A DNA stretch of 64,000 nt from Eledone cirrhosa (Eukaryota): assembly GCA_964016885.1 (NCBI GenBank), contig OZ024742.1, positions 337,652,001 to 337,716,000 on the forward strand, read 5' to 3'. Positions 5,030 through 61,050 of this stretch are shown here, one piece after another; within the stretch, counting starts at the first letter, position 1, and each line of letters begins with the position of its first letter. The position numbers and the translations under genes were made by a program. The notes under the pieces were generated by a model. It was not told where the DNA came from and ran no database searches. It saw nothing but the letters and a program-made list of their open reading frames with translations.

Positions 5030-5052
5030 TATATATATATATATATATATAT

Positions 5053-5498
5053 GGAACAGTTATATTTAAATTGTTGGGTTACAACTAGTAAAATATTTAT
5101 AACTGATATAAAAGCACTCGACAAATATTTGGAGTATATTTACAATATTAAATAAATGGAAACTATATTTATAAAACCATATTTATTTCATTAATATATT
5201 TCCAGGGATATCATATTAACAATATGCTATGCCTTCCTCAGACAGAAATACAATATAAACAGTTTTATAGATAAATAGATTCGACATACCGTAACACCAT
5301 CGACTTGTATTTGAAATCAAATCAACCTTTTCAAATACAAGTCGATGTTGTTACGGTATGTCGAATCTATTTATCTATAAAACTGTTTATATTGTATTTT
5401 GTCTGAGGAAGGCATAGCATATTGTTAATATGATATCCCTTGAAATATATATAATGAAATAAATATGGTTTTATAAATATAGTTTCCATTTATTTAAT

Positions 5499-5504
<6 letters not shown>
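5053..5504. mobile_element. Penelope-like inverted pLTR (176-bp arms, 12-nt loop, one-sided 88-nt tail)
   Basis: 5141-5316 is a near-perfect reverse complement of 5329-5504. Sits inside (TA)n. Each arm has a CTGAGGA...GAAA hammerhead motif. Confidence 0.75.
5395..5461 (+). ncRNA. Type I hammerhead ribozyme motif (imperfect stem II)
   Basis: TATTTTGT-CTGAGGA-[AGGCATAGCATATT gtt AATATGATATCCCTT]-GAAA-TATATA-TA-ATGAAATA. Stem I has 8 bp with two G-U pairs; stem III is palindromic. A more degenerate mirror copy lies at 5184-5250 (-). Confidence 0.6.
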
Positions 5505-6154: not shown

Positions 6155-6281
6155 ATGTAGGAGGTGAGTTTTTATTGTAGTACAATAAAGCAATGCAGAT
6201 ATCGGATAAGAAGCACTCTACAGTTTGTAGGACTGGAGTATGCATAATATAAGATCAAAAGATGGTTAAAGGAGTTCCATG

Positions 6282-6352
6282 TATTTTATTATGCGCATTT
6301 CAAAAACAAACATCATCATGCAATAATATTTGTGTTTTCATCAGATAAGACA
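6282..6352 (-). ncRNA. Type I hammerhead ribozyme
   Basis: Minus strand reads TGTCTTAT-CTGATGA-16-bp stem II-GAAA-TGCGCA-TA-ATAAAATA. Confidence 0.8.
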
Positions 6353-8462
6353 GGAGAACATGATATGAAGACTAAAAAACACTTGTGGATAGTGCAGTTT
6401 TAAATCAACATATGAAAAAGTGGTTTTAGATTGAATGTGTGATATTGGGAAAAAATATTTTATTTAGAGAGGGGGGGGTGGAAAGGATGAAAAGGGAAGG
6501 AGATGAGAGGGAGAGATGGGTGATAGAGAGAAAGAGATAGTTTTTTATAACTGAGAGGAGATATATTTTTTACATAGAAAGGTTGAAAACCGTTTGGAAG
6601 ATACTGTATAAATTAAAAATTTTGAAAATTAACGAAGGGAGGATATGTGCGAGGAAAAAATATTTTATTTAGGGAGGGGGGGATGAAAGAAAGGGGGAGG
6701 AGATGAGAGTGAAGGTGGAGAGGTGAGAGATGGGTGATAGAGAGAAAGAGATAGTTTTTATAACTGAGAAAAAGATATATTGTTTTAACATAGAGAGGTT
6801 GGGAACCGTTGGAAGATAATGTATAAATTAAAGGAATTTGAAAATTAACGAAGGGAAATTATGTATGAAGATAGAGAGAAAAAAATAATAATTGTGGATG
6901 AATATTCTAACGTCAAAAAAAGAAATGTTATATATTGTGGCAATTTCAAAATTAACGAAGAGAAAAAATTATTAAGGTTTGTGTGTAGAAGGATTTGAGA
7001 AAAATAATGTGAAGTTAAAGTTTGTATATTGGTTGAATTGATAATATATGCGAATAAAGAGTTAATATGTATTAATAATGAGTTCGTTGATGGGGAGAGA
7101 AAAAAATAATAATAAATTAAGGATGAAATTGAGATTTAAAAAGATTTATGATAGAGAGAAAAAAATAATAATGATTGCGGATGAATATTGTATATGTTAT
7201 GATTTTACAAGGTGAAGATAGAATGAGGGTAATGAGTAAACAAGTATTATAGAGTGTATAATGCCCTTTAAAGTAAGGTAGATGGGTATATTTTAAAGAG
7301 GTGTATGTATATGTGCCTTTGAGAAAAGATTCTAAATTGATGAAATGAAAAATTTTACCATTATCTCTAACCTAGATTCTATAATAAATAGACGCACAGA
7401 TTTGTTTTCTATCTGCCTGCATAAATTCCATAGAACTTTTCACAAAGTATACAGTTAATATTCAATTCTTTATCAATTTAGAATCTTTTCTCAAAGGCAC
7501 ATATACATACACCTCTTTTAAAAATATACCGCATCTACGCTTACTTTAAAGGGCATTATACACTCTATAATACTTGTTTACTCATTACCCTCATTCTATC
7601 TTCACCTTGTAAAATCATAACATATACAATATTCATCCGCAATCATTATTATTTTTTCTCTCTATCATAAATTCTTTTTAATCTCAATTTCATCCTTAAT
7701 TTATTATTTTTTTTCTCCCCATCAACGAACTCATTATTAATACATATTAACTCTTTATTCGCATATATTATCAATTTCAACCAATATACAAACTTTAACT
7801 TCACATTATTTTTTCTCAAATCCTTCTACACACAAACCTTAATAATTTTTCTCTTCGTTAATTTTGAAATTGCCACAATATATACATTTCTTTTTTTTGA
7901 CGTTAGAATATTCATCCACAATTATTATTTTTTTCTCTCTATCTTCATACATAATTTCTCCTTCGTTAATTTTTCAAATTCCTTTAATTTATACATTATC
8001 TTCCAACGGTTCCCAACCTCTCTATGTTAAAACAATATATCTTTTTCTCAGTTATAAAAACTATCTCTTTCTCTCTATCACCCATCTCTCCCTCTCCACC
8101 TTCACTCTCATCTCCTCCCCCTTTTTTTCATCCCCCACCTCCCTAAATAAAATATTTTTTCCTCGCACATATCCTCCCTTCGTTAATTTTCAAAATTTTT
8201 GATTTATACAGTATCTTCCAACGGTTTTCAACCTCTCTATGTAAAAAATATATCTCCTCTCAGTTATAAAAACTATCTCTTTCTCTCTATCACCCATCTC
8301 TCCCTCTCATCTCCTTTCCCTTTTCATCCTTTCCACCCCCCCCCCTCTCTAAATAAAATATTTTTTCCCCAATATCACACATCAATCTAAAACCACTTTT
8401 CATATGTTGATTTAAAACTGCACTATCCACAAGTGTTTTTTAGTCTTCATATCATGTTCTCC

Positions 8463-8534
8463 TGTCTTATCTGATGAAAACACAAATATTATTGCATGAT
8501 GATGTTTTGTTTTTGAAATGCGCATAATAAAATA
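8463..8534 (+). ncRNA. Type I hammerhead ribozyme
   Basis: CTGATGA 8471-8477, long stem II, GAAA 8515-8518, palindromic stem III ATGCGCAT. Predicted cleavage after A8526. Confidence 0.78.
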
Positions 8535-8571
8535 CATGGAACTCCTTTAACCATCTTTTGATCTTATATTA

Positions 8572-12465
<3,894 letters not shown>

Positions 12466-12687
12466 ACGTGTATTCAATACGAAGCAGCTTTTTAAGATGT
12501 CCGTTGTACAAGAATTGTTAGGATTTTTCTTCGTTTGCTCTTTTCATTTGGAAACAGAACGAAAGTTAGATAAAAGTAAGAGAGGGGCAGAAAAAATAAG
12601 AATATAAAAAATGTGTATTTGCAATTGATAATGTTTTACTACAATGCACCATTAAGAATTAACCAATTTAACTTGATACTATCGTTG

Positions 12688-20769: not shown

Positions 20770-23484
20770 ATGCTGCCTAAAAAAAACTTACAAAACTGGA
20801 GCAACAAAGAGGAGAGAAGCTAGACAAGCTACCACGGAAGAATCTGCAAAGAAATGTCATTCATCTAATCACAAGTTTTCTGAAAAGTCAACAGTCTTCG
20901 TCAACAAGTAGTGACGCATCCCAAAGCAACGTAACTGCCGGAATTTCCGGCGAGTCGGTCTGGTCAGATGAACTGGAGAAACAGAAAAGCACTGGAGAGT
21001 CGCGAGAACCTGACGTCGAAGATGCCTCAGGTCCATCGACTATCTCAACAACCATCACTGAAGATGTAGTTCCAACTGGGGATCCGAACTCAATAGAGGG
21101 AAAAATGGCTGTATCGGAATCTGAAAATGAAAATGATTCAGAGGAAACTACATTGGCAAAACAAATCCCAGAGTATGAGCCTGTAGAATGCATGTTGAAT
21201 TTACAAGAGAAGTATCCAAGCGACCCGAAACATTTCGAAGACAGACCATTGACGACACCTCTAATTCGTGCCCTCATGGCCGTTGGTCCTTGTCAGCCAG
21301 GATTGAAAGATAATTTTGCTGATTTCCCTCTCGACTCGAACCACAGAAAATTCAACATCAGTTGGTACAAGAGAAAGTGTGCTGGAATCCATAAAGTTAA
21401 CCGACACTGGTTAGCATACTCTCCTGAATCCAACAGATTATATTGCTTTTGTTGTTGGCTGTTTGCTGATAAAAATGCCGAATCTTACTCGAAGACTTGG
21501 GGTAATCCAGAGTGGTGGATGGCAAACTTCAAAAAGGGAATCGAAAAAATTGCCAAGCATGAGAAAAGTGCCATTCACATCAATGCACAAAAGCAATACT
21601 TCATGACAAAATATCGTTTGGACGCAGATAAAACAGTGATCGATAACCTCATCCATGAAGAGAAGAAGCGAATTGAACAAAATCGCCAGATATTGAGGCT
21701 ATTGCTTGATTGTACGTTATTTCTCACAAAACAAGGCCTGGCCTTCAGAGGTCACAGGGAATATGCTGGACTTGGCGCCAAATCAGAAAATGAAGGAAAC
21801 TTTATTGAATTTAAATTGATGGCCAAGTATGATACGATCTTGGAAATCCATTTATTCTCGCCTGGGCGCACTAAAAGACAGTCTATGTACTTAAGTCCAA
21901 AATTACAAAACGGATTTATAGAATACCTGGCAAACGAATGTACTCAACAAATAATCACGGAAGTGAAAGCGGCAAAATACTATTCAGTCATCGTCGATTC
22001 CACAATAGACATTTCGCATCAGGATCAATGCTCTGTGTCACTGCGATATGTATCGAAAAGTGGCCACACACAGGAGCATTTCCTGTCGTTTTGTGAACTA
22101 GAATCAGCAGCCACTGAATCATTTTACGATACGCTTGTGAAAGTTCTTTTCCAGGATCTATCCTTGGATGCTCAATATATTAGGGGACAAGCTTACGACG
22201 GAGCGTCGAATATGTCCGGCCATATTACTGGGCTTCAGGCTAGAGTTAAAGAGGGATGCTCTTCGAAAGCTGTTTACGTCCATTGTTGCACTCATAACCT
22301 GAACCTGGTGTTAATCGATGCTAGCCAATCGTCAGTGGATGGTAAATTATTTTTTGGTATATTGGAGAGCCTGTATGTTTTCTTAACATCAAGCTTGCCA
22401 AGGCTGAAAATCCTCGAAGAAGAACAAGAAAACTATTGGCTTCAACGGTATTAACATTAAAAAGACTCTCAGATACCCGCTGGTTTAATCACATTCAGGC
22501 CGTAGAGGCTACCATTAACAACTTACCGGCAGTAATAAGTGCACTAGAGAGGATAATAAGTGGGGATGTTCACAACACTGCTCCGAAAGTATTAGCCAAG
22601 GCCAGAGGTTCGCTACTAAATGTGAACAAGTTTGAATTCATTTTCATGTTGAAGTTTTTTCAGAATTTACTTAAAAAGCTGCATTCTGTTTCACGATATT
22701 TGCAGAAGGAGGCTATCGACTTATATTCCGCGGACGTCATGATTAAAAATGTAGTAAAAGAAATTGAAGACATCCGCTCAAATGAATATTTTGACCGAAC
22801 ATTATCAGACGCTAAAAATATCGCCAAGCAATGTCAAGTTGAACCAGAGTTTACAACAGAAAAATGGAAAAGAAAAAAGAAGCATTTTCATGACGAAAAT
22901 GCCAGTGATGAACCTCATGAGATGATGAGTCAGCATTTTAAACGGGGCGTTTATTTCACTATCTTAGATAGAATCATTAGTAGCTTTAACAAACGTTTTG
23001 CCGACTTGCACGATCTAGTGAAGGATTTTTCGTGCTTGATACCGGCGCACTTCAACGACGACGACACATGCAATAGAGAGAGAATCGATAATCTTATGAA
23101 ATTCTACGAGGGTGACATCGAAAATGACACTATCTTCGACGAGTATTTTCATTCAAAGATTTTTACAAGGAAGTGTGTTTAGATAAATCCATATCGAGTT
23201 CTGAGATTGTTCCGTTTATGATTTCTAATGACTTAGATAGAGCCTATCCGAACGTGTTTGCCTTATACAAAATGTTCATAACTATTCCGGTTAGCTCGGC
23301 GCAGGCTGAGCGAACCTTCAGCAGGCTCAAACTGATAAAGTATTATTTGCGTAGTACCATGAGTGAAGAGTGGTTGAATGCTCTGGCAATGATGTACATA
23401 GAGCGAGAACTGGCTGAAAAAATTGACTTCAGCATCGTGATTGAAAAATTTTCTAAAGTAAAACATCGCAAATTAGGTCTGTAG
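20770..23484 (+). pseudogene. ZMYM1/P52rIPK-like hAT transposase (TTF-type zinc finger, DUF4371, C-terminal dimerisation domain), frameshifted
   Basis: Motifs WLAYS..LYCFCC, QGLAFRGH, EGNF, VDSTIDIS, GQAYDGASNMSG, VHCCTHNLNL, LSDTRW, PVSSAQAERTFSRLKLIKYYLRSTM, over three consecutive ORFs (21105-22454, 22436-23182, 23173-23484). The start at 20770 is inferred. Confidence 0.9.
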
Positions 23485-42639: not shown

Positions 42640-43147
42640 TAATTTAGGCACAAGGCCAGCAATTTATGGGAAGGGAAAAGTCTATTACATCAACCCCAGT
42701 ACTTGACTGGTACTTTATTTCATCAAGCCCAGGAAGGATGAAAGGCAAAGTTGACCTTGGTGAGATTTGAAAACAGAACGTAAAGAGCTGGAACTAAATA
42801 CTGCAAAGTAATTTGTTCAGCACTTTAATGCCTCTGCCAAATTTACCACCACCGTTAAACACAAACCTTGGTTTACAAAACCAATGCTCTAACCTCTGAG
42901 CCATGAAGAACTGGATTTATAATAAATAATGGTTTCTGATTTAGGCACAAGGCCAACAATTTTGAGAGAGGGGAAAGTCAATTAAATTGACCCCAGTGTA
43001 TTACTGTACTTTATTTTATCGACCCCATAAGGATGAAAGGCAAAGCTGACCGTGGCGGGATTTGAACTCAGAGCGTAGAAATTTGTAAATAAATACCACA
43101 AAGCATTTTGTTTAACACCCTACCAATACTGCCAAATCTACCGCCCT
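42640..43147 (-). mobile_element. Two tRNA-derived SINEs
   Basis: Reverse complement of the 31612-31980 family (about 42640-42850 and 42930-43147). Confidence 0.75.
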
Positions 43148-46622: not shown

Positions 46623-47074
46623 TTAATTGACAGAGACAGAAAAAAGAAGAAGGAGCACAAAGCAAAACCATCAAACTGAGATCAGCTGGTTACCTAATCT
46701 AGTTCTATTGCCTCTCACTTTCATTTTTCATCATTATCATCATGTCCGTTTTTACAAGTTTCCATGCTGGCATGGGTTTGACAGAGTTTGAGACAGAATT
46801 TTACAGCCCAATGCCCTTCCAGACATTAAATCTCCACTTTTTTTCTCCTCTTTGAAACACGTCTGCTAAGCCACAGAACTAAAATAAACATGAAAACAAA
46901 CACAAAGTGAAGAGGCAAACGAACACACACACACAATATATATATATATATGTACAGGGTGAGTTTTATTGTAGCACAATAAAGCAATGCAAATATCATA
47001 TAAGTAGCACTCAACAGTTTATAGGACTGGAGTATAAATAATAAAGATCAAAAGATGGTTAAAAGAGTTCCATG

Positions 47075-47145
47075 TATTTTATTATGCGCATTTCAAAAAC
47101 AAATATCATCATGGGATGATACTTGCGTTCTCCTCAGATAAAATA
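47075..47145 (-). ncRNA. Type I hammerhead ribozyme
   Basis: Minus strand reads TATTTTAT-CTGAGGA-GAACGCAAGTATCATC ccat GATGATATTTGTTTTT-GAAA-TGCGCA-TA-ATAAAATA. Perfect 8-bp stem I. Confidence 0.85.
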
Positions 47146-47697
47146 GGGAGACATGATATGAAGTTTAAAAAACACTTGCGAGCAGTGAAGTGTTAAATCT
47201 ACATATGAAAAATAAAATAAGATGAATATATGAGATTGGGAAAAAAAAGAAGGAAGGGGGAAGGAAAAGGTAAGGAAGAAAGAAAATAAAGGATGACGGG
47301 GTAGGAGTATAAGAAGGAAGGATGAGAGAGGAGGAGAAATGAGTGGGAGAGAGAGATAGACTTCAATACTGAGAAACACTGGCTCACAGAGAGAAATAAA
47401 AAAAAACCGTTGTAAGATAATACATAATTTTAAAAAAATAATAAAAATTTTGAAATTAAAAGTTAATGAGGTTTATGAATGGTGATGTTTATGATTAAAG
47501 AAAAAGGAATTAAGAATAGTATTTATTTAAGGTTTATATATTGAAGGGTTTAATATGTGCGAAAAGGAATTTATTAATATGTATTATTAAAATAAAAATA
47601 TTAAGGATATGAGGTGAATGAAGAAGAGATTAAATGAATTATGAACTTAGAGGAATTAGTTAGGGTCTAAGTTTTTCTATGTATTGTAATATGAAAA

Positions 47698-48218
47698 CTT
47701 TGGCACCTATCGTAAATAACTTCTCCAATCCAATTCCTTCTATAAATAATACTAGGTCACTTGTTAATAACTCTGGTAATTTCTCTAATCGTAATCGCCC
47801 TGTTAGAACTAATTGTCCTCTTAATAACCAATGTCTTGATAAAAATTTAGTGTATGAATGTAAGGTTATAACTGGTAATAATTCTTTTACCTATTTTGGT
47901 TCCACTTCCACTTCCTTTAAAGCAAGAATTTATAATCACAATTCGTCTTTTAAATACCAACTTAAAAGAACTAACACGGCACTCTCAGAACTTATATGGT
48001 CCTTAAAAGACAAAAATATTAACTACAGCATTTCTTGGAGGAAGGTTTGCAACGCCTCTCCTTACCGTAATTCTTCCCTATCCAGAACATGTAATCTCTG
48101 CCTAGCCGAGAAATTTACCATTATCTTTAATTTTAATTCTATAATAAATAGACGTACGGATTTATTTTCGCTCTGCTTGCATAAATCCCATAGAACTTTC
48201 CATAAAGTATACAGCTAA
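47698..48218 (+). pseudogene. C-terminal GIY-YIG endonuclease of a Penelope-like element (open frame, 5'-truncated)
   Basis: CPLNNQCL..LVYECKV..YFGSTSTSFKARIYNH..SF..T.LS..IW.LK..CNLCLAEK..NRR..CLH. The ATG at 47679 in the ORF track is supplied by the inverted arm. Confidence 0.88.
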
Positions 48219-49183
48219 TATCTCACTACCTAATTAGCTTAAAATCTTCTTTTCTCAAAGGCTTTTATCTTTTACAAATATACCCATCTTTCTACCTTAT
48301 TTCAGTATATTATATTATACAATTTACTCATTCTATGTCGTTAGCGGTCCCCTATTTTTCTTCTTTTTTTATCCTTTTTTCCTTTCTTCTTTTTTAATTT
48401 CTAATCTTTAATCTGTAACTTTTACTTCTCAATTACTTCTTAATTCATATTATTACTCACTATAGCATTTTCCTTATATTCTTGGCCATACAAACTATAT
48501 TTTTAATATATACTAATATTACCATTAGTAAATTTTGTAAACATGTATTTTTTTTTTTTGATGTTATATATTTTTTCTACCTTAAATTTTATTCTTTCTT
48601 CTCTCCTTCCGTGCTCGTATTAAACCTATTATTTACTTTTTCATATTACAATACATAGAGGAATTAGTTAGGGTCTAAGTTTGTTTCTAAGTTCATAATT
48701 CATTTAATCTCTTCTTCATTCACCTTATATCCTTAATATTTTTATTTTAATAATACATATTAATAAATTCCTTTTCGTACATATTAAACCCTTCAATATA
48801 TAAACCTTAAATAAATACTATTCTTAATTCCTTTTTCTTTAATCATAAACATCACCATTCATAAACCTCATTAACTTTTAATTTTTAAATTTTTTTTATT
48901 TTTTTTAAATTATGTATTATCTTACGTTTTTTTTTTTATTTCTCTCTGTGAGACAGTGTTTCTCAGTATTGAAGTCTATCTCTCTCTCTCTCCCCCACTC
49001 ATTTCTACTCCTCTCTCATCCTTCCTTCTTATACTCCTCCCCCGTCATCCTTTATTTTCTTTCTTCCTTACCTTTTCCTTCTTTTTTTCCCAATCTCATA
49101 TATCCATCTTATTTTATTTTTCATATGTAGATTTAACACTTCACTGCTCATAAGTGTTTTTTAAACTTCATATCATGTCTCCC

Positions 49184-49254
49184 TGTTTTATCTGATGAGA
49201 ACGCAAGTATCATCCCATGATGATATTTGTTTTTGAAATGCGCATAATAAAATA
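49184..49254 (+). ncRNA. Type I hammerhead ribozyme
   Basis: CTGATGA 49192-49198, 15/16-paired stem II, GAAA 49235-49238, palindromic stem III. Predicted cleavage after A49246. Confidence 0.85.
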
Positions 49255-49508
49255 CATGGAACTCTTTTAACCATCTTTTGATCTTATATTATATATGTAT
49301 ATAACTTTGATAAGTTTTGGCCAGTATTGACCCAGGTCATGTCTAACTTAATAGCACCACCTGGTGCTATTTGAAATATATATTTCAAATAAGGAACATA
49401 TGAGAAAGACATGCTTATCTGGCTAGTTTAGTCTTGTATTGTGACAATGCATCCTACACGTGACAATGTATCCTACACATGCCAGCACGAAAAGTGGACA
49501 TATTATGT

Positions 49509-52039: not shown

Positions 52040-54280
52040 TCATCATCATCATCATCGTTTAACGTCCTTCCACGCTTGCATGGGTTTGGACGGGAGTTTT
52101 CCCACTTGAGGCAAGATTTGTTGTCCTGCTCGTATAGGACTGTCTGGCGGGTTTTCTACGGCTGGATGCCCTTCCTAACCCCAACCACGTTTACAGTGTG
52201 GACTGGGAGGTTTTTACCCTGTTACCTACACGGTCACATTACAGCGTGGACTGTGTTTTTTTGTCGTGACACCAACACAACCTCATTTGTTTCGGACTGG
52301 ATGTTGTGGTACCAACATAACTTCACATTTAAGGGGGTGGTGTGGTGTGGATGGGGTGTGGGTAGTGGGACGAGGGTGTATTTTGTTAGAGGTGCCTACT
52401 GACTAGGTTTCGCTTTGTACTTAGGCAAGGCGGTTCTTTCGTATGACTGTGTAGCGCCAAAGATCTCGGTCCAGTGACATTATCTTGGAGAGGTGCAAGT
52501 GTGTGAGGTCGGAATTTATCAAGTCGTCCCAGGTTTTTCTGGGTCTGCCTACTCTGTGGCTACCGTCTATTTTTATCGCCCTGCACTTTTTTTATACAGC
52601 TGTCGTCTTTCATGCGCATCACGTGACTGTACCAACGTAGTCTTCTCTCGAGTAAACAACATCTGATCCCTCTTATTCCTAATTTCTCCCTTAGTTCGTT
52701 TATGCTTTTCCGGACACGTATATTACTATTACACATCCAGCGGAGCATGCAAGCTTCGTTTCTCTCTAGTCTGCGTATATCATCTGCACACAATGCCCAG
52801 GTCTCACTGCCATGTAACATTGCTGTTCGTATGCAGGCATCATACAGTCTGCTTTTCATTTTTAGAGAGAACCCTTTAGCGGCCATCCCGTTCTGACTCT
52901 AGCTACTGTACTTTCAGAGCACCCACCCCCACTGCTGATTTTGTCACCCAGGTAACGGAAGGTGTCCACTATTTCTATAGACCCATCTGTGCAATGGAAT
53001 GAGCTAGTATTCTGTGGGCACTTGCTGCTACTTATTGCACCAGAGCACCGGCCACATATAAAATCTATATTCTTAGTTAGCTTACCCAAGATCACACTAC
53101 ATCTTTTATGCACGCATACTTGGCATTTGGGACATAAAAATGGAGTTTCTGCCTACTCCTTTCCTACACACTGAGCATGGCCATTTCCCAGATGGGACCG
53201 GTGCCCTATTTTCCTTCCTACAAACTAGAACTTTAGTCTTAGACAAGTTAACTTTAAGGCCTTTTGATACTAGGCCATGCTTCCATGTTTGGAATTTCTT
53301 CTCTAGTTTGGCCATTGATTCAGCTATGAGCGTTAGATCATCTGCATATAGGAGTTCCCATGGGTAGCCGGTCTTGAACTCCTCTGTTATAGCCTGAAGG
53401 GCAATAATAAATAGTAGGGGGTTAAGAACGGAGCCCTGATGGACACCAACTTTTACGCTAAACTCTTCACTATATTCGCTGTTAATTCTAACCTTGCTCA
53501 TTGTTTCTTTATACATGGCTTGTATAGCTCTCACAAGCCATTCATCAACACCTAGTTTTCTAAGGGCCCACCAGATAATGGAGCGGGGGACTCTGTCAAA
53601 GGCTTTCTCCAAGTCGACAAAAGCTAAGTATAGGGGTTTTCTTTTAGCTAGGTACTTCTGTAGTTGTCGTACAATGAAAAGAACGTCTGTGGTACTTTTA
53701 CCTGACACAAACCCGAACTGCATTTCATCTAGATCAATTCGTTCTCTGATTGGTTGTACTATTACTTTTTCTGTGACCTTCATGACCTGGTCGATTAATT
53801 TAATGCCTCTATAGTTACCCCTATCAAGAGCATCTCCTTTACCCTTGTAGCAGTTAATGATGATGCTGCTACGCCAGTCCTTCCGAACGGCCCCATTCTG
53901 TATGACTTGGTTTACTATCTGGGTGACCATAGTGTGTCCCACCGTTCCAGATGCTTTCAGCATTTCAGCAACTATTTCCGAAGGCCCGGCCGCCTTACCC
54001 GTCTTCATATCTTTGATTGCCTTACTTATTATAATACTACCTTCAACTAGCACTGCTGGTCCCTCTATTGGATCGATGTGGGGGAGACTGTCTTTCTCCC
54101 ATTTAGTAGCTTTTCGTAGTGACACTTCCAAGCTACCTTCTTATCAGCGTCAGTGATGGCAAGTGCACCATCATCATTAAGGACACACTTCTCCCCGACA
54201 ATATCACGATTTTCCTTGACACATTTCCTAGCAATCCTGAACACCTCACGTTTTTGGTCCTCGCGTTGTAGAACATGCTT
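52040..54280 (-). mobile_element. 5'-truncated RTE LINE (RT region, frameshifted)
   Basis: ORFs 53106-54131, 52862-53113 and 52560-52886 closely match the 999-aa ORF. (TGA)n tail, TA flanks. Confidence 0.93.
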
Positions 54281-56421: not shown

Positions 56422-59400
56422 ATCATCATCATCAAGGTTTAGCGTCCGTGTTCCACGCTTGCATGGGTTTGGGCGGGGGTTTTCCCACTTGAGGCAAGAG
56501 TGGTTGTCTTGCTCGCATAGGACTGTCTGGCGGGTTTGCTACAGCTGGATGCCCTTCCTAACACCAACCACATTTACAGTGTGGGTCTGGGAGGTTTTTA
56601 CCGTGTTGCCTACACGGCCACATTACAGCGTGGACTGTCTGGCGGGTTTGCTACAGCTGGATGCCCTTCCTAACACCAACCACATTTACAGTGTGGGGCT
56701 GGGAGGTTTTTACCGTGTTGCCTACACGGCCACATTTACAGCGTGGACTGTGTTTTTTTTTGACGCGACACCTACACGATCTCATTTGTTTCGGCCTGGA
56801 TGTTGTGGCACCAACATAACTTTACATTGAAAGGGGCGGTGTGGATGGGGTGGGACGGGGGTGTGTTTTGATAGAGATGCCTACTGACTGTAGTAGGTTT
56901 TACTTTGTATTTAGGTAAGGCGGGTCTTCTCTATTACTGAGTACCGCCAAAGGTCTCGGTCCAGTGACATTGTCTTGGAGAGGTGTAATCGTGTGAGGTC
57001 GGAATTTATCATGTCGTCCCAGGTTTTTCTGGGTCTGCCTACTCCGTGGCTACCGTCTATCTTTATTGCCCTGCACTTTGTTATACAGCTGTCGTCTTTC
57101 ATGCGCATCACGTGACCATACCAACGTAGCCTTCTCTCGAGTAAACAACATCTGATCCCTCTTATTTCTAATTTTTTCCTTAGTTCGTTTATGCTTAGCC
57201 GTTCACGTATATTACTATTGCACATCCAGCGGAGCATGCAAGCTTCGTTCCTCTCTAGTCTGCGTATATCCTCTGCACACAATGCCCAGGTCTCACTGCC
57301 ATGCAGCATTGCTGGTCGTATGCAGGCATCATATAACCTGCCTTTCATTTTTAGGGAGAACCCTTTAGGGGCTAATAGTGGTATAAGCTCTCTGAACTTT
57401 TTCCATCCAGTTCTGACTCTAGCTACTGTACTTTCAGAGCACCCTCCCCCACTGCTGATTTTGTCACCCAGGTAACGGAAGCTGTCCACTATTTCTATAG
57501 AACCCTCTGCGCAATTGAAAGAGCTAGCATTTTGTGGGCACTTGCTGCTACTTATTGCACCAGAGCACCGGCCACATGTAAAACCTGTGATCCCACTACA
57601 TCTTTTATGCACCCATACTTTGCATTTGGGACATAAAATGGAGTTTCTACCTACGCCTTTCCTACACACTGAGCATGGCCATTTCCCGGAAGGGACCGCC
57701 GCCTTATTTTCTTTCCTACAAACTAGAACTTTAGTCTTAGCCAGGTTAATTTTAAGGCCTTTTGATTCTAGGCCGTGCTTCCATGTTTGGAATTTCTTCT
57801 CTAGTTCGGTCATTGATTCAGCTATGAGCGTTAGATCATCTGCGTATAGGAGTTCCCATGGGCAGCCGGTCTTGAACTCCTCTGTTATAGCCTGAAGGGC
57901 AATAATAAATAGTAGGGGGCTAAGAACAGAGCCCTGATGAACACCAACTTTTACGCTAAACTCTTCACTATATTCGTTGTTAATTCTAACCTTACTGACT
58001 GTTTCTTTATACATGGCTTGTATAACTCTCACAAGCCATTCGTCAACACCTAGTTTTCTAAGAGCCCACCAGATAATGGAGCGGGGGACGCTGTCGAAGG
58101 CTTTCTCCAAGTCAACAAAAGCTAAGTATAGGGGTTTACTTTTAGCTAGGTACTTCTCCTGTAGTTGTCGTACAATGAAAAGAGCGTCTGTGGTACTTTT
58201 GCTTGACACAAACCCGAACTGCATTTCATCTAGATCAATTCTCTCTCTGATTAGTTGCGCTATTACTTTTTCCGTGACCTTCATGACCTGGTCGATTAAT
58301 TTAATGCCTCTATAGTTACACCTATCTAGGGCATCTCCTTTACCCTTGTAACAGTTAATGATGATGCTGCTATGCCAGTCCTTCGGAACAACCCCATTCT
58401 GTATGACTTGGTTTACTATCTGGGTGACCATGGTGTGTCCCACCGTTCCAGAGGCTTTCAGCATCTCAGCAACTATTTCCGAAGGCCCAGCCGCCTTACC
58501 CGTCTTCATATCTTTGATTGCCTTACTTATTATACTACCTTCGACTAACACTTCTGGTCCCTCTATTGGGTCGATGTGGGGGAGACTGTCTTTCTCCCAT
58601 TTGTTCTCCTCATTTAGAAGCCTTTCGTAGTGACACTTCCAAGCTACCTTCTTATCAGCGTCAGTGATGGCAAGTATGCCATCATCATTAAGTACACACT
58701 TCTCCCCGACAATATCACGGTTTTCCTTGACACATTGCCTAGCAATCCTGAACACCTCACGTTTTTGGTCCTCACGTTGTAGAACATGCTTGAACTTTCT
58801 TTCCTCTGCTTCCCTGCTTGCGAAGTACACTTGTCTCCTAGCTTCCCTCCTGACCACTTGATAGTCTTCTCTACTTCCCCCATCCCGCCATACTTTCCAA
58901 GCCTGCTTTTTGGCCTTAATTGACTCCTCCACCTTACTGTTCCACCACCATGTTACTCTCCTCCTACCTACAGGCCTGCCCCAGCCACAGACTTCGTCTG
59001 CCGCCGTCAGCAGGTTTGCTTTCAGGAATTCCCACTGTTCCTCTATATTATACGACTCTAATTGCTCTTCCTTACTGTCGAAAGCATCAAGTAATATGCT
59101 TTGAAATTTATTTCTGGCTATGGGGTCCTTTAGCTTCCATATTTTTCTCCTAAGGATAGTCCTCTTCTGCTGTCTAGTACGTCTCGTCCTGACTATGAGG
59201 TCGCTAATTATCAGTCTATGTTGGGAGGTGCATTCTTCATGGGGGAGGGATTTAGTGTTAACAACAGACACACTGTCACGTCTTCTGGTAAGGATATAAT
59301 CTACCTGGCTTGTGTGTTCCCCCGATCTATATGTGATCAAGTGATTGTCTCGTTTTTTGAAGTTAGTGTTACAGATAGTTAGGTTATTTGCGTCACAGAA

Positions 59401-61050
59401 TTCCAGGATTCTGGAGCCTACCTCATTTCTAGTACCGAACCCATAGCCTCCATGGATTCCGTCATAGCCGTCACAATGTTGTCCAACGTGACCATTTAGG
59501 TCGCCTGCAATAATTATATAGTCACTGTCGGTTATTTGGGAGGTAGCGAGCATCAGTGTCTCATAGAATCTGTCTTTTATAGCGCCGGGCAGTCCGGATT
59601 GGGGTGCGTACGCAGATATTACTGTCACCGTAGTTTTATTGAGGACAAGTCTTATTTTAATTATTCTGTCGTTCACTCTATTTACGTCTATTATCTTATC
59701 TGCCCACTTTTCTGCTACCATGATTCCTACTCCACCCAGCCCATTGTCATTTCCCACCCAGAAAAGCTTATAGCATCGTTCTTTACCCACGATGAATCTA
59801 GCAGACCCTCCCCTCCACCTGGTCTCTTGAATACAACAAACATCGACCTCCTTACGTTCAAGCATTTCTACAACCTCGTTAGAGCGGCCCTTTAAGGTGC
59901 CTACATTCATGGTACCAACTCTGAAATTTTGGATTGCGTTTGGAGGGTGGGAGCGGTGGGGCGGGGAGATGGGTTATGTTAGCCATCCTCGGCCGAAACA
60001 AGGAGTGCTTGCATTCTCGTCCACGAGGTGAATTTGTCTTTATCTTTGGCATTGTCGCTGAGCGTCCAGATTTTTCTCTCTTCAACTCTCCAGAATTCCG
60101 TAGTCCATCCATCATATCGAAAAGCAACCAGTTAAGCGATAGTATGGGCCTCTGACTTATGATTGGTCCACGTAATAATGGTGGTGCGTGGGGGCGGGTT
60201 ATGATTGGTCCACGTAATAATGGTGGTGCGTGGGGGCGGGTGGGAGGGATGATGGGTTGTTAGCGAGAATGTAAGGTTTAAGATAAGATCGCCGTATTTT
60301 GGGCATAATTTAACAATAAACGAAAATACAAGATTTGTTTTGTTTAAGAAAATACGATAGAGAAAATGCGATGATAGAGAAAATACGATTTTAGAGAAAA
60401 AATATGATATAGAATGGTGAAAATATGATATAGAATGGTGAATGAATGAATGACTAATGGATTTGAATGGAGAGAAGAATCGAGAAAAATATTTGAACGT
60501 TACTTTATACCGAGGGAACAGCCATACCAGAATAGCGAGTTGGCGATTCTGATTAATTTTGGTAGGGTTTATCTTATATGTATAGGGGGGGGGGGGGGGG
60601 GGGGCAGGAACCAGCATGGTGTATGGGGGGGGGGGGGGGGGGGTAGAAGATGGGATGGACCAGAGAGGTTAAGAGTTTAAATAAGCACTCGAAGTTTTGC
60701 GTAAAACTTAGCAAGTTTAACAAAATATATTTAAAAGAATATATAAGAGTGATTTGTTTTATGAAAATACGACAGAATTAAGAGAATGTAAGGTTTAAGA
60801 TAAGATCCCCGTATTTTGGGCATAATTTAACAATAAACGAAAATACAAGATTTGTTTTGTTTAAGAAAATACGATAGAGAAAATGCGATGATAGAGAAAA
60901 TACGATTTTAGAGAAAAAATATGATATAGAATGGTGAATGAATGAATGACTAATGGATTAGAATGGAGAGAAGAATCGAGAAAAATATTTGAACGTTACT
61001 TTATACCGAGGAAACAGCCATACCAGAATAGCGAGTAAAAACAAAGAAAC
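56422..61050 (-). mobile_element. Full-length RTE-clade LINE
   Basis: About 1.1-kb 5' region, intact ORF, ~490-nt 3'UTR ending in (TGA)n, embedded in (TA)n. The 5' boundary is approximate. Confidence 0.9.
56911..59910 (-). CDS. RTE LINE APE endonuclease-reverse transcriptase, 999 aa, uninterrupted
   Basis: NVGTL, IQETRW, SAYAPQ, GDLNGH, VDY, SQHR (APE); NYRGIKL, QFGF, FVDLEKAFD, GVHQGSVLSP, LYADD (RT); Cys-rich finger; RLRWYGHV..GRPRKTW. Confidence 0.95.
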   Translation of the reverse strand: MNVGTLKGRSNEVVEMLERKEVDVCCIQETRWRGGSARFIVGKERCYKLFWVGNDNGLGGVGIMVAEKWADKIIDVNRVNDRIIKIRLVLNKTTVTVISAYAPQSGLPGAIKDRFYETLMLATSQITDSDYIIIAGDLNGHVGQHCDGYDGIHGGYGFGTRNEVGSRILEFCDANNLTICNTNFKKRDNHLITYRSGEHTSQVDYILTRRRDSVSVVNTKSLPHEECTSQHRLIISDLIVRTRRTRQQKRTILRRKIWKLKDPIARNKFQSILLDAFDSKEEQLESYNIEEQWEFLKANLLTAADEVCGWGRPVGRRRVTWWWNSKVEESIKAKKQAWKVWRDGGSREDYQVVRREARRQVYFASREAEERKFKHVLQREDQKREVFRIARQCVKENRDIVGEKCVLNDDGILAITDADKKVAWKCHYERLLNEENKWEKDSLPHIDPIEGPEVLVEGSIISKAIKDMKTGKAAGPSEIVAEMLKASGTVGHTMVTQIVNQVIQNGVVPKDWHSSIIINCYKGKGDALDRCNYRGIKLIDQVMKVTEKVIAQLIRERIDLDEMQFGFVSSKSTTDALFIVRQLQEKYLAKSKPLYLAFVDLEKAFDSVPRSIIWWALRKLGVDEWLVRVIQAMYKETVSKVRINNEYSEEFSVKVGVHQGSVLSPLLFIIALQAITEEFKTGCPWELLYADDLTLIAESMTELEKKFQTWKHGLESKGLKINLAKTKVLVCRKENKAAVPSGKWPCSVCRKGVGRNSILCPKCKVWVHKRCSGITGFTCGRCSGAISSSKCPQNASSFNCAEGSIEIVDSFRYLGDKISSGGGCSESTVARVRTGWKKFRELIPLLAPKGFSLKMKGRLYDACIRPAMLHGSETWALCAEDIRRLERNEACMLRWMCNSNIRERLSINELRKKLEIRGIRCCLLERRLRWYGHVMRMKDDSCITKCRAIKIDGSHGVGRPRKTWDDMINSDLTRLHLSKTMSLDRDLWRYSVIEKTRLT

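What the first reader, a model, noticed from the sequence alone, without database searches (positions are those of the whole stretch)
46952..49291. Second, diverged subfamily with intact GIY-YIG frame; the ribozyme is the best-conserved pLTR segment
Compared with the 6155 copy, most of the pLTR has diverged, yet the hammerhead block is retained. Its changes preserve structure: stem II AAACACAAATATTATT/GATGATGTTTGTTTTT vs GAACGCAAGTATCATC/GATGATATTTGTTTTT swaps Watson-Crick and G-U pairs, and the core varies only at the free N7 position (CTGATGA vs CTGAGGA). This is within-window evidence of selection on the RNA fold. The endonuclease ends in CxxC..EK..N.R..C.H; the clade (Hydra, Nematis, Neptune or new) cannot be assigned by eye.
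Basis: partly seen in the sequence, partly recalled or inferred. Interest (0 to 1): 0.75.

Follow-up and report, generated by a model that had tools for sequence, protein, structure and literature searches.

The report
Broken Hydra-clade Penelope copy with hammerheads
This is a broken copy of a very abundant animal jumping gene (a Hydra-clade Penelope-like element) whose ends carry a predicted self-cutting RNA fold that active lineages have kept intact; this is a known kind of element, but its sister copies suggest both ends of an insertion are likely copied from one uncut RNA, starting at two fixed points.

Summary
The feature is real and of a known kind. 46952-49291 is a 5'-truncated, head-to-head insertion in (TA)n of a Hydra-clade Penelope-like element; all published Hydra motifs are met except the short length, and an intact 798-aa sister copy exists. 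The endonuclease frame is open but not intact: there is no RT, no own start codon, and two linker cysteines are lost.

The hammerhead pattern occurs 22,290 times in the genome. Selection on its fold holds family-wide: 8 of 8 lineage changes keep helix II paired against 6 of 39 private ones, and two-sided changes appear between sibling families. The window pair alone does not show it. All its changes are one-sided, the N7 change is private to one arm, and the ribozyme (86%) is no better conserved than the DNA just 3' of it (93%) or the tail (88%).

More interesting: 90 of 99 insertions end at two different fixed sites about 88 nt apart, one per end. Arms pile up at -69, never start at the cleavage site, and their lengths are coupled. 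This suggests two RTs copy one uncut RNA. The scan already reported this system several times elsewhere in this genome.

The parts
46950..46953 (-). Left end = RT start site 2 (end of tail), abutting (TA)n
   Evidence: 97 site-2 ends sampled, 86 followed by TA-rich DNA; tandem copies read on past it into the 5' UTR
46952..47033 (-). Tail of about 82-88 nt between the two start sites, present at this end only; two predicted hairpins, 47009-47033 and 46965-46983
   Evidence: the ACTC..GAGTGC stem recurs in sibling families
47034..47697 (-). Inverted pLTR arm (copy of the 3' end)
   Evidence: 92% to 48638-49296 with gaps; 561 matches, 17 mismatches
47075..47145 (-). Type I hammerhead motif of the inverted arm (CUGAGGA; private N7 change)
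47693..47697 (.). Head-to-head junction of the two arms, 3-4 nt microhomology (GAAA)
   Evidence: read by eye from the sequence
47698..48218 (+). C-terminal remnant of the ORF: linker with CxC lost, plus GIY-YIG endonuclease with Tyr/Arg/Glu/Asn, CxxC and CxH kept
   Evidence: 81% (139/172) to the intact 798-aa ORF of L151; model matches I-TevI, Z 9.2; lesion shown
48219..49122 (+). 3' UTR / upstream pLTR, AT-rich, poorly conserved between subfamilies; small internal inversion at about 48653-48692
49122..49127 (+). Position -69 (CATATG): where arms of sister copies pile up; inferred RNA 5' end / transcription start
   Evidence: 56 of 150 site-1 arms and 22 of 144 tail arms begin at -70..-61
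49184..49254 (+). Type I hammerhead motif: helix I 8 bp; core at 49192; helix II 15 bp plus a C.U mismatch (49199-49234); palindromic helix III ATGCGCAT (49238-49245); predicted cleavage after A49246
   Evidence: not detected by Rfam at gathering score
49284..49292 (+). Right end = RT start site 1, merging into (TA)n
   Evidence: 133 site-1 ends sampled, 126 followed by TA-rich DNA

Best explanation
This is a dead, 5'-truncated insertion of a high-copy Hydra-clade Penelope-like retrotransposon in a (TA)n tract, likely made when two reverse transcriptases primed on opposite target strands and copied the same uncut RNA from two fixed start sites, the two cDNAs then being joined head to head. SHOWN: clade motifs, architecture, copy number, two fixed ends, lineage-level conservation of the hammerhead fold, neutral decay of inserted copies. 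INFERRED: a transcript starts at -69 in a pLTR and runs through hammerhead, site 1, tail, site 2, ORF and the next pLTR (unit 3.67-3.71 kb). The protein, likely a dimer as predicted for Anolis Poseidon, nicks both strands of (TA)n; one RT starts at site 1 and the other about 88 nt behind it at site 2. The hammerhead can likely close helix III only as a dimer, so it would cut only tandem or paired RNAs. It is kept by selection on source elements but is not a step in making the template.
For: CLADE: RW(I/R), DKT, CxCx5C, CxxC-E-N-CxH, no CCHH, (TA)n target and a hammerhead match the Hydra definition. By eye the protein is colinear with Hydra-1_Obim.

ENDS: 87 of 90 and, with more loci and duplicates collapsed, 90 of 99 two-ended insertions pair a site-1 end with a tail end.

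ONE TEMPLATE: when the site-1 arm stops at -69 the tail arm runs beyond it in 1 of 43; when the site-1 arm is long the tail arm does so in 21 of 40 (p=1e-7). Arms agree at 12 lineage sites in 42 of 53 pairs against 8% of random pairs. 16 of 90 tail arms do not overlap the other arm at all, so one arm cannot be a fold-back copy of the other.

UNCUT: 0 of 294 arms begin at the cleavage site (+53..+57). This agrees with PMC11167929 (two start sites, both strands extended, uncleaved RNA the main substrate).

FOLD SELECTION: 8 of 8 lineage changes keep pairing vs 6 of 39 private changes (neutral expectation about 26%). Between families, pair 6 is C-G (233) or U-A (77) of 327, and helix III is nearly always a palindrome (TGCGCA 178, TATGTA 63, TATATA 48, TACGTA 5). 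In 11 flank-defined clusters 65 of 66 cells pair vs 26-40 when slid. Helix III costs +3.5 kcal/mol as a monomer; the palindrome duplex gives -10.5.
Against: No cleavage, RNA or protein data.

The first pair of helix II is A-U (175) or G-U (130), G-C in only 10 of 327, whereas PMC4209133 calls G10.1-C11.1 highly conserved. The 101-nt folds are not more stable than shuffles (z -1.8 to +0.6) and the minimum-energy folds lack the catalytic core.

Pair-breaking variants are shared by many copies: helix I C.A in 13 of 218, and A>U at +64 in a possible distal helix I in 40 of 218. Non-palindromic helix III occurs in 3 haplotypes of 4-7 copies. The 6-of-39 count leaves out 19 changes to states found in other major haplotypes (18 keep pairing, 1 breaks); with them it is 24 of 58.

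11 of 53 arm pairs differ at lineage sites, two of them at two neighbouring lineage sites. The -69 pile-up sits on a palindrome (CATATG) that could itself join cDNAs. A predicted stall of the trailing RT at site 1 was not significant (8 of 45, p=0.08). Loci were chosen by hits, mostly from one contig, not at random. Clade placement is by motifs; no tree was built.
Confidence: 0.7

Rival explanations
1. The two arms come from two separate priming modules: two RNAs, or the 5' and 3' pLTR of one tandem RNA, held together by the palindromic helix III (double hammerhead as a dimerisation device).
For: Palindrome conserved with two-sided changes; cofold of two copies forms the 8-bp duplex; some arm pairs differ at lineage sites.
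Against: It predicts many insertions with one arm stopped at -69 and the other long; seen in 3 of 42. Independent modules would give same-site ends about half the time; seen in 9 of 99.
Confidence: 0.15
2. The hammerhead cuts tandem transcripts to unit length and the monomer is ligated to a circle, which is the RT template (model of PMC4209133).
For: The fold is under selection; tandem units of 3669-3709 nt exist; a re-ligated circle would also let RT cross the cleavage site.
Against: A circle has no 5' end, yet 78 of 294 arms begin at -70..-61, and no arm starts at the cut site. Cleavage was not needed in vitro for Anolis Poseidon.
Confidence: 0.1
3. The G-U-rich helix reflects A-to-I editing of a hairpin RNA fixed by reverse transcription, or shared ancestry of a promoter/priming block, rather than selection on a ribozyme.
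For: 6 of the 8 lineage changes are A/G; the block 3' of the ribozyme is at least as conserved; an earlier scan note reports hyper-edited copies in this genome.
Against: No A>G excess on the sense strand: singletons A>G 73/706 vs T>C 72/642 in the ORF and 38/243 vs 89/458 in the 3' UTR. Editing cannot give C-G/U-A swaps or keep palindromes across families.
Confidence: 0.05

Closest known systems
Hydra clade of C-terminal EN+ Penelope-like elements, incl. Hydra-1_Obim (Craig et al. 2021, PMC8557442; passages, section 11 and supplement parts read)
   Same: Single ORF with RT then GIY-YIG; RW-, DKT, CxCx5C, CxxC/CxH motifs; no CCHH; (TA)n target; hammerhead in the pLTR; inverted 5'-truncated arm; tail at one end only.
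   Different: A different family from Hydra-1_Obim (other hammerhead sequence). Unit 3.7 kb rather than under 3 kb. Helix II has 15 bp with a conserved C.Y mismatch, against 3-7 bp in the listed Hydra hammerheads. Helix III is a perfect 8-nt palindrome. Tail about 85-90 nt rather than 30-40. Tens of thousands of motif copies.
Anolis Poseidon (PAc) in vitro (Frangieh et al. 2024, PMC11167929; parts 1-2 of 4 read)
   Same: Two internal RT start sites bounding the tail; AT-rich target; both strands nicked and extended; uncleaved RNA as template.
   Different: Other clade. Here both sites lie in non-coding RNA upstream of the ATG and match the target by AT microhomology. In the parts read, the paper does not say whether one insertion uses one site per end or one RNA for both.
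[quoted passage not shown]
   Same: Palindromic helix III, longer than usual helix II, thousands of copies, pairs on opposite strands 100-700 bp apart.
   Different: No extra base between A9 and 10.1; first helix II pair is A-U or G-U; helix II about twice as long, with a fixed mismatch at pair 4.

Membership tests
Hydra-clade PLE | Single ORF, RT with C-terminal GIY-YIG EN | tested here: met
   798-aa ORF in L151; EN model matches I-TevI Z 9.2, rmsd 2.4 over 89, then EndoII and UvrC. The RT is identified by colinearity with Hydra-1_Obim by eye; Pfam and PDB sequence searches gave no RT hit. The window copy holds only the EN.
Hydra-clade PLE | RWK motif in place of GxKF/Y | tested here: met
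   RRLRWI in this family, RRLRWR in a sibling family; the third residue differs from K
Hydra-clade PLE | DKG changed to DKT | tested here: met
   HSDKTNN
Hydra-clade PLE | Linker CxCx5C | tested here: met
   45 of 55 sampled copies; lost in the window copy
Hydra-clade PLE | CxxC and CxH around the conserved E and N; CCHH absent | tested here: met
   C109, C112, E115, N128, C137, H139 conserved in 90% or more of 117 sequences; H58 is the only other conserved His
Hydra-clade PLE | No insertion-in-fingers domain | tested here: met
   Spacing from FDI to GASDS is close to that in Hydra-1_Obim, judged by eye
Hydra-clade PLE | (TA)n target and hammerhead in the pLTR | tested here: met
Hydra-clade PLE | Generally under 3 kb (descriptive, not defining) | tested here: not met
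   tandem units 3669-3709 nt
Hydra-clade PLE | Falls inside Hydra in an RT tree | not testable with these tools
   Published reference sequences could be read but not loaded into a tree
Neptune / Nematis / Penelope-Poseidon | CCHH in the EN; DKG; CX2-5CxxC linker (Neptune, Nematis) | tested here: not met
Naiad / Chlamys | EN N-terminal to RT | tested here: not met
   EN is C-terminal
Type I hammerhead ribozyme | CUGANGA / GAAA / UH core with helices I-III | tested here: met
   helix III favourable only as a dimer
Type I hammerhead ribozyme | G10.1-C11.1 first pair of helix II (usual, not universal) | tested here: not met
   G-C in 10 of 327; A-U or G-U in 305
Type I hammerhead ribozyme | Self-cleavage | not testable with these tools
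   needs an in vitro assay or RNA end mapping

The most novel reading that the evidence does not exclude
Penelope-like elements integrate by tandem double priming: a protein dimer loads two RTs about 88 nt apart on one capped, uncut RNA, each primed by one target strand. This would explain the tail at only one end, the inverted arm and the short palindromes that stop at the RNA's 5' end. The hammerhead, with its fixed C.Y mismatch and palindromic helix III, would then be kept mainly as a dimer-sensing switch or protein-binding fold rather than to make the template.
Probability: 0.5. Interest if true: 0.65.

Novelty: new member of a known kind. Interest (0 to 1): 0.42.

Why it matters
The copy itself is ordinary debris. 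The family is useful because how Penelope-like elements finish integration, and what their hammerheads do, are stated as open in the papers read. Thousands of copies give a statistical record that narrows the models: one site per end, coupled arm lengths, no arms from the cut site. An intact 798-aa copy in tandem form makes the model testable in the existing in vitro assay. It also suggests that Hydra-type elements can be a large repeat class in this genome; the 2021 paper described only a small number of families.

Tried and rejected
Searches that gave nothing: Rfam found no hammerhead in the window. Pfam found nothing on the window EN or two long ORFs; only 15 of 117 relatives hit GIY-YIG. 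The word-based homologue search scored none of 344 candidates. PDB sequence searches were blank or irrelevant. Foldseek gave no match at E<=0.001, although its top six rows were GIY-YIG enzymes by my recall of those proteins. The protein atlas gave no result.

Ideas rejected: (1) A fold-back origin of the inverted arm: 16 of 90 tail arms do not overlap the other arm. (2) The GTGAGT at 46959 as a splice donor: it is the reverse complement of the tail end, which reads on into the 5' UTR in tandem copies; not tested on RNA. (3) The 6155 subfamily as non-autonomous: L151 has a full ORF. (4) A family-wide ADAR bias. (5) Stalling of the trailing RT at site 1: not significant.

Counts not used: the genome-wide site-1 count counts some places several times, so only the tail count of 7,606 is clean. 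Helix I pairing rates are inflated by my own filter.

Literature: searches showed no description of this family or of the one-template rule. PMC13282606 passages mention Penelope counts but not ribozymes or Hydra. bioRxiv 10.64898/2026.07.22.740005: part 1 of 5 read; its supplements could not be seen and might list such motifs. Subscription papers and Repbase/Dfam were not searched.

Full report
ANATOMY. The element lies between TA runs and is built head to head. From the left: an 82-nt tail and a 664-nt inverted copy of the 3' end (46952-47697, minus strand), a 3-4 nt microhomology junction, the last 172 codons of the ORF (to 48218), about 1.07 kb of 3' UTR/pLTR, and a right end at about 49290 without the tail. 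The two arms differ at 17 of 578 aligned bases. The 6155 element has the same ends but is almost wholly palindromic. The genome is an unnamed 3.0-Gb animal assembly.

PROTEIN. The frame is open but truncated. It has no RT, its early ATG comes from the inverted arm, and it has lost the CxC of the linker kept by 45 of 55 copies. A genome search found 60,103 first-look candidates; the 150 scored were 87-95% identical apart from the window copy itself, most without stops, so an open EN frame is unremarkable. A tandem copy, L151, has a complete 798-aa ORF that is 81% identical over the shared part. An AlphaFold model (pLDDT 89.6) matches I-TevI (Z 9.2, rmsd 2.4, 89 residues), EndoII and UvrC. Every sequence motif that Craig et al. 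give for Hydra is present, and by eye the protein is colinear with Hydra-1_Obim, whose hammerhead is different. So this is another family in that clade. No tree was built.

HAMMERHEAD. The core pattern with this family's helix III occurs 22,290 times, and the reversed control 0 times. A pattern for other helix III sequences gives 19,834 more, mostly sibling families plus some decayed copies of this one. At least one sibling family has a full Hydra ORF between tandem hammerheads (L214). Helix II has 15 pairs and a mismatch at pair 4 that is C.U or C.C in 313 of 327 motifs across families. Helix III is the palindrome AUGCGCAU, unfavourable as a monomer and stable as a duplex, the dimer type described in PMC4209133.

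IS THE FOLD SELECTED? Yes at lineage level. Among 184 copies with the 36-nt helix II, the eight haplotypes with five or more copies differ at 8 pairs, all still paired. Private changes keep pairing in 6 of 39, or 24 of 58 if reversions to other lineage states are counted, against about 26% expected. Fisher p is 1e-5 on the first count; a transitions-only null gives about 0.008. All eight changes are one-sided. Two-sided changes appear only between families: C-G/U-A at pair 6, A-U/G-C at pairs 2 and 3, and alternative palindromes. There is no A>G excess that would point to RNA editing. N7 differs between the two arms of this copy only; inserted copies lose essential core bases at about the flank rate (9 of 306 vs about 2%; core intact in 38 of 51); and a helix I mismatch was missed. 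The ribozyme is not the peak of conservation between the two subfamilies (86% vs 93% and 88% downstream). It is the peak only against distant siblings, together with a tail hairpin ACTC..GAGTGC.

HOW COPIES ARE MADE. Tandem copies show that the tail is the start of the next unit's 5' UTR, so both ends are internal RT start sites, as shown in vitro for Anolis Poseidon. One end at each site is the rule: 87 of 90, and 90 of 99 after adding loci and collapsing duplicates. The tail length of about 85-90 nt holds across sibling families. Arm 5' ends pile up at -69, where subfamily conservation also begins, often with a few extra bases at the junction. None of 294 starts at the cleavage site. Arm lengths are coupled: both stop at -69 (18) or both run beyond (21), and mixed cases are rare (3). 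The simplest reading is one uncut RNA copied twice. I designed this last test after reading an earlier scan note that proposed a single template. Caveats: hit-based sampling; reach values for long arms are capped by reference divergence; a palindrome at -69; 11 of 53 discordant arm pairs; no RNA data.

VERDICT. A real feature and a new family of a known clade. The mechanistic pattern is the valuable part. It extends published results, was not found in my seven literature searches, and has been noted by this scan in other windows of the same genome. Interest 0.42.

Noticed in passing
window 5043-5500: A short head-to-head palindrome of a third, sibling hammerhead family (helix II starting AGGCATAGC, helix III ATATATAT), with a tail at the left end only. 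The left arm's helix III has an insertion.
   Followed up: partly
window 6155-8575: The other subfamily's copy is a nearly complete 2.4-kb palindrome with about 120 nt of EN at its centre and internal 200-nt tandem repeats.
   Followed up: partly
window 48653-48692 vs 47645-47682: A segment of about 28 nt is inverted in one arm relative to the other, bounded by TAGA/TCTA.
   Followed up: no
window 56911-59973 (-): 1020-aa open frame of a LINE with AP endonuclease, RT and a weak PHD-like finger match after the RT.
   Followed up: no
window 20781-23182 (+): Two consecutive long frames; the first has DUF4371, likely a hAT-type transposase by my recall of that domain.
   Followed up: no
window 53106-54140 (-): RT fragment, 344 aa.
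   Followed up: no
window 42812-42910 (-): Weak tRNA match with a 41-nt insertion, possibly a SINE head.
   Followed up: no
window 8560-12500: About 4 kb of AT-rich satellite with 8/10/14-nt periods and inverted blocks, directly right of the 6155 element.
   Followed up: no
L062 and L064: The same long-ORF insertion is 100% identical on two contigs: a segmental duplicate or assembly redundancy. L086-L089 are likewise similar.
   Followed up: partly
several loci, e.g. L016, L061, L072, L143, L155, L166: Many unrelated hammerhead families with palindromic helix III and long helix II sit within 0.8 Mb of sampled DNA; one (GGTCAC../..GTCACC) also has a C.C mismatch at pair 4.
   Followed up: no
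L151:6450-7421 (-): 323-aa frame resembling a PIF1-type (Helitron) helicase by my recall, beside the intact element.
   Followed up: no
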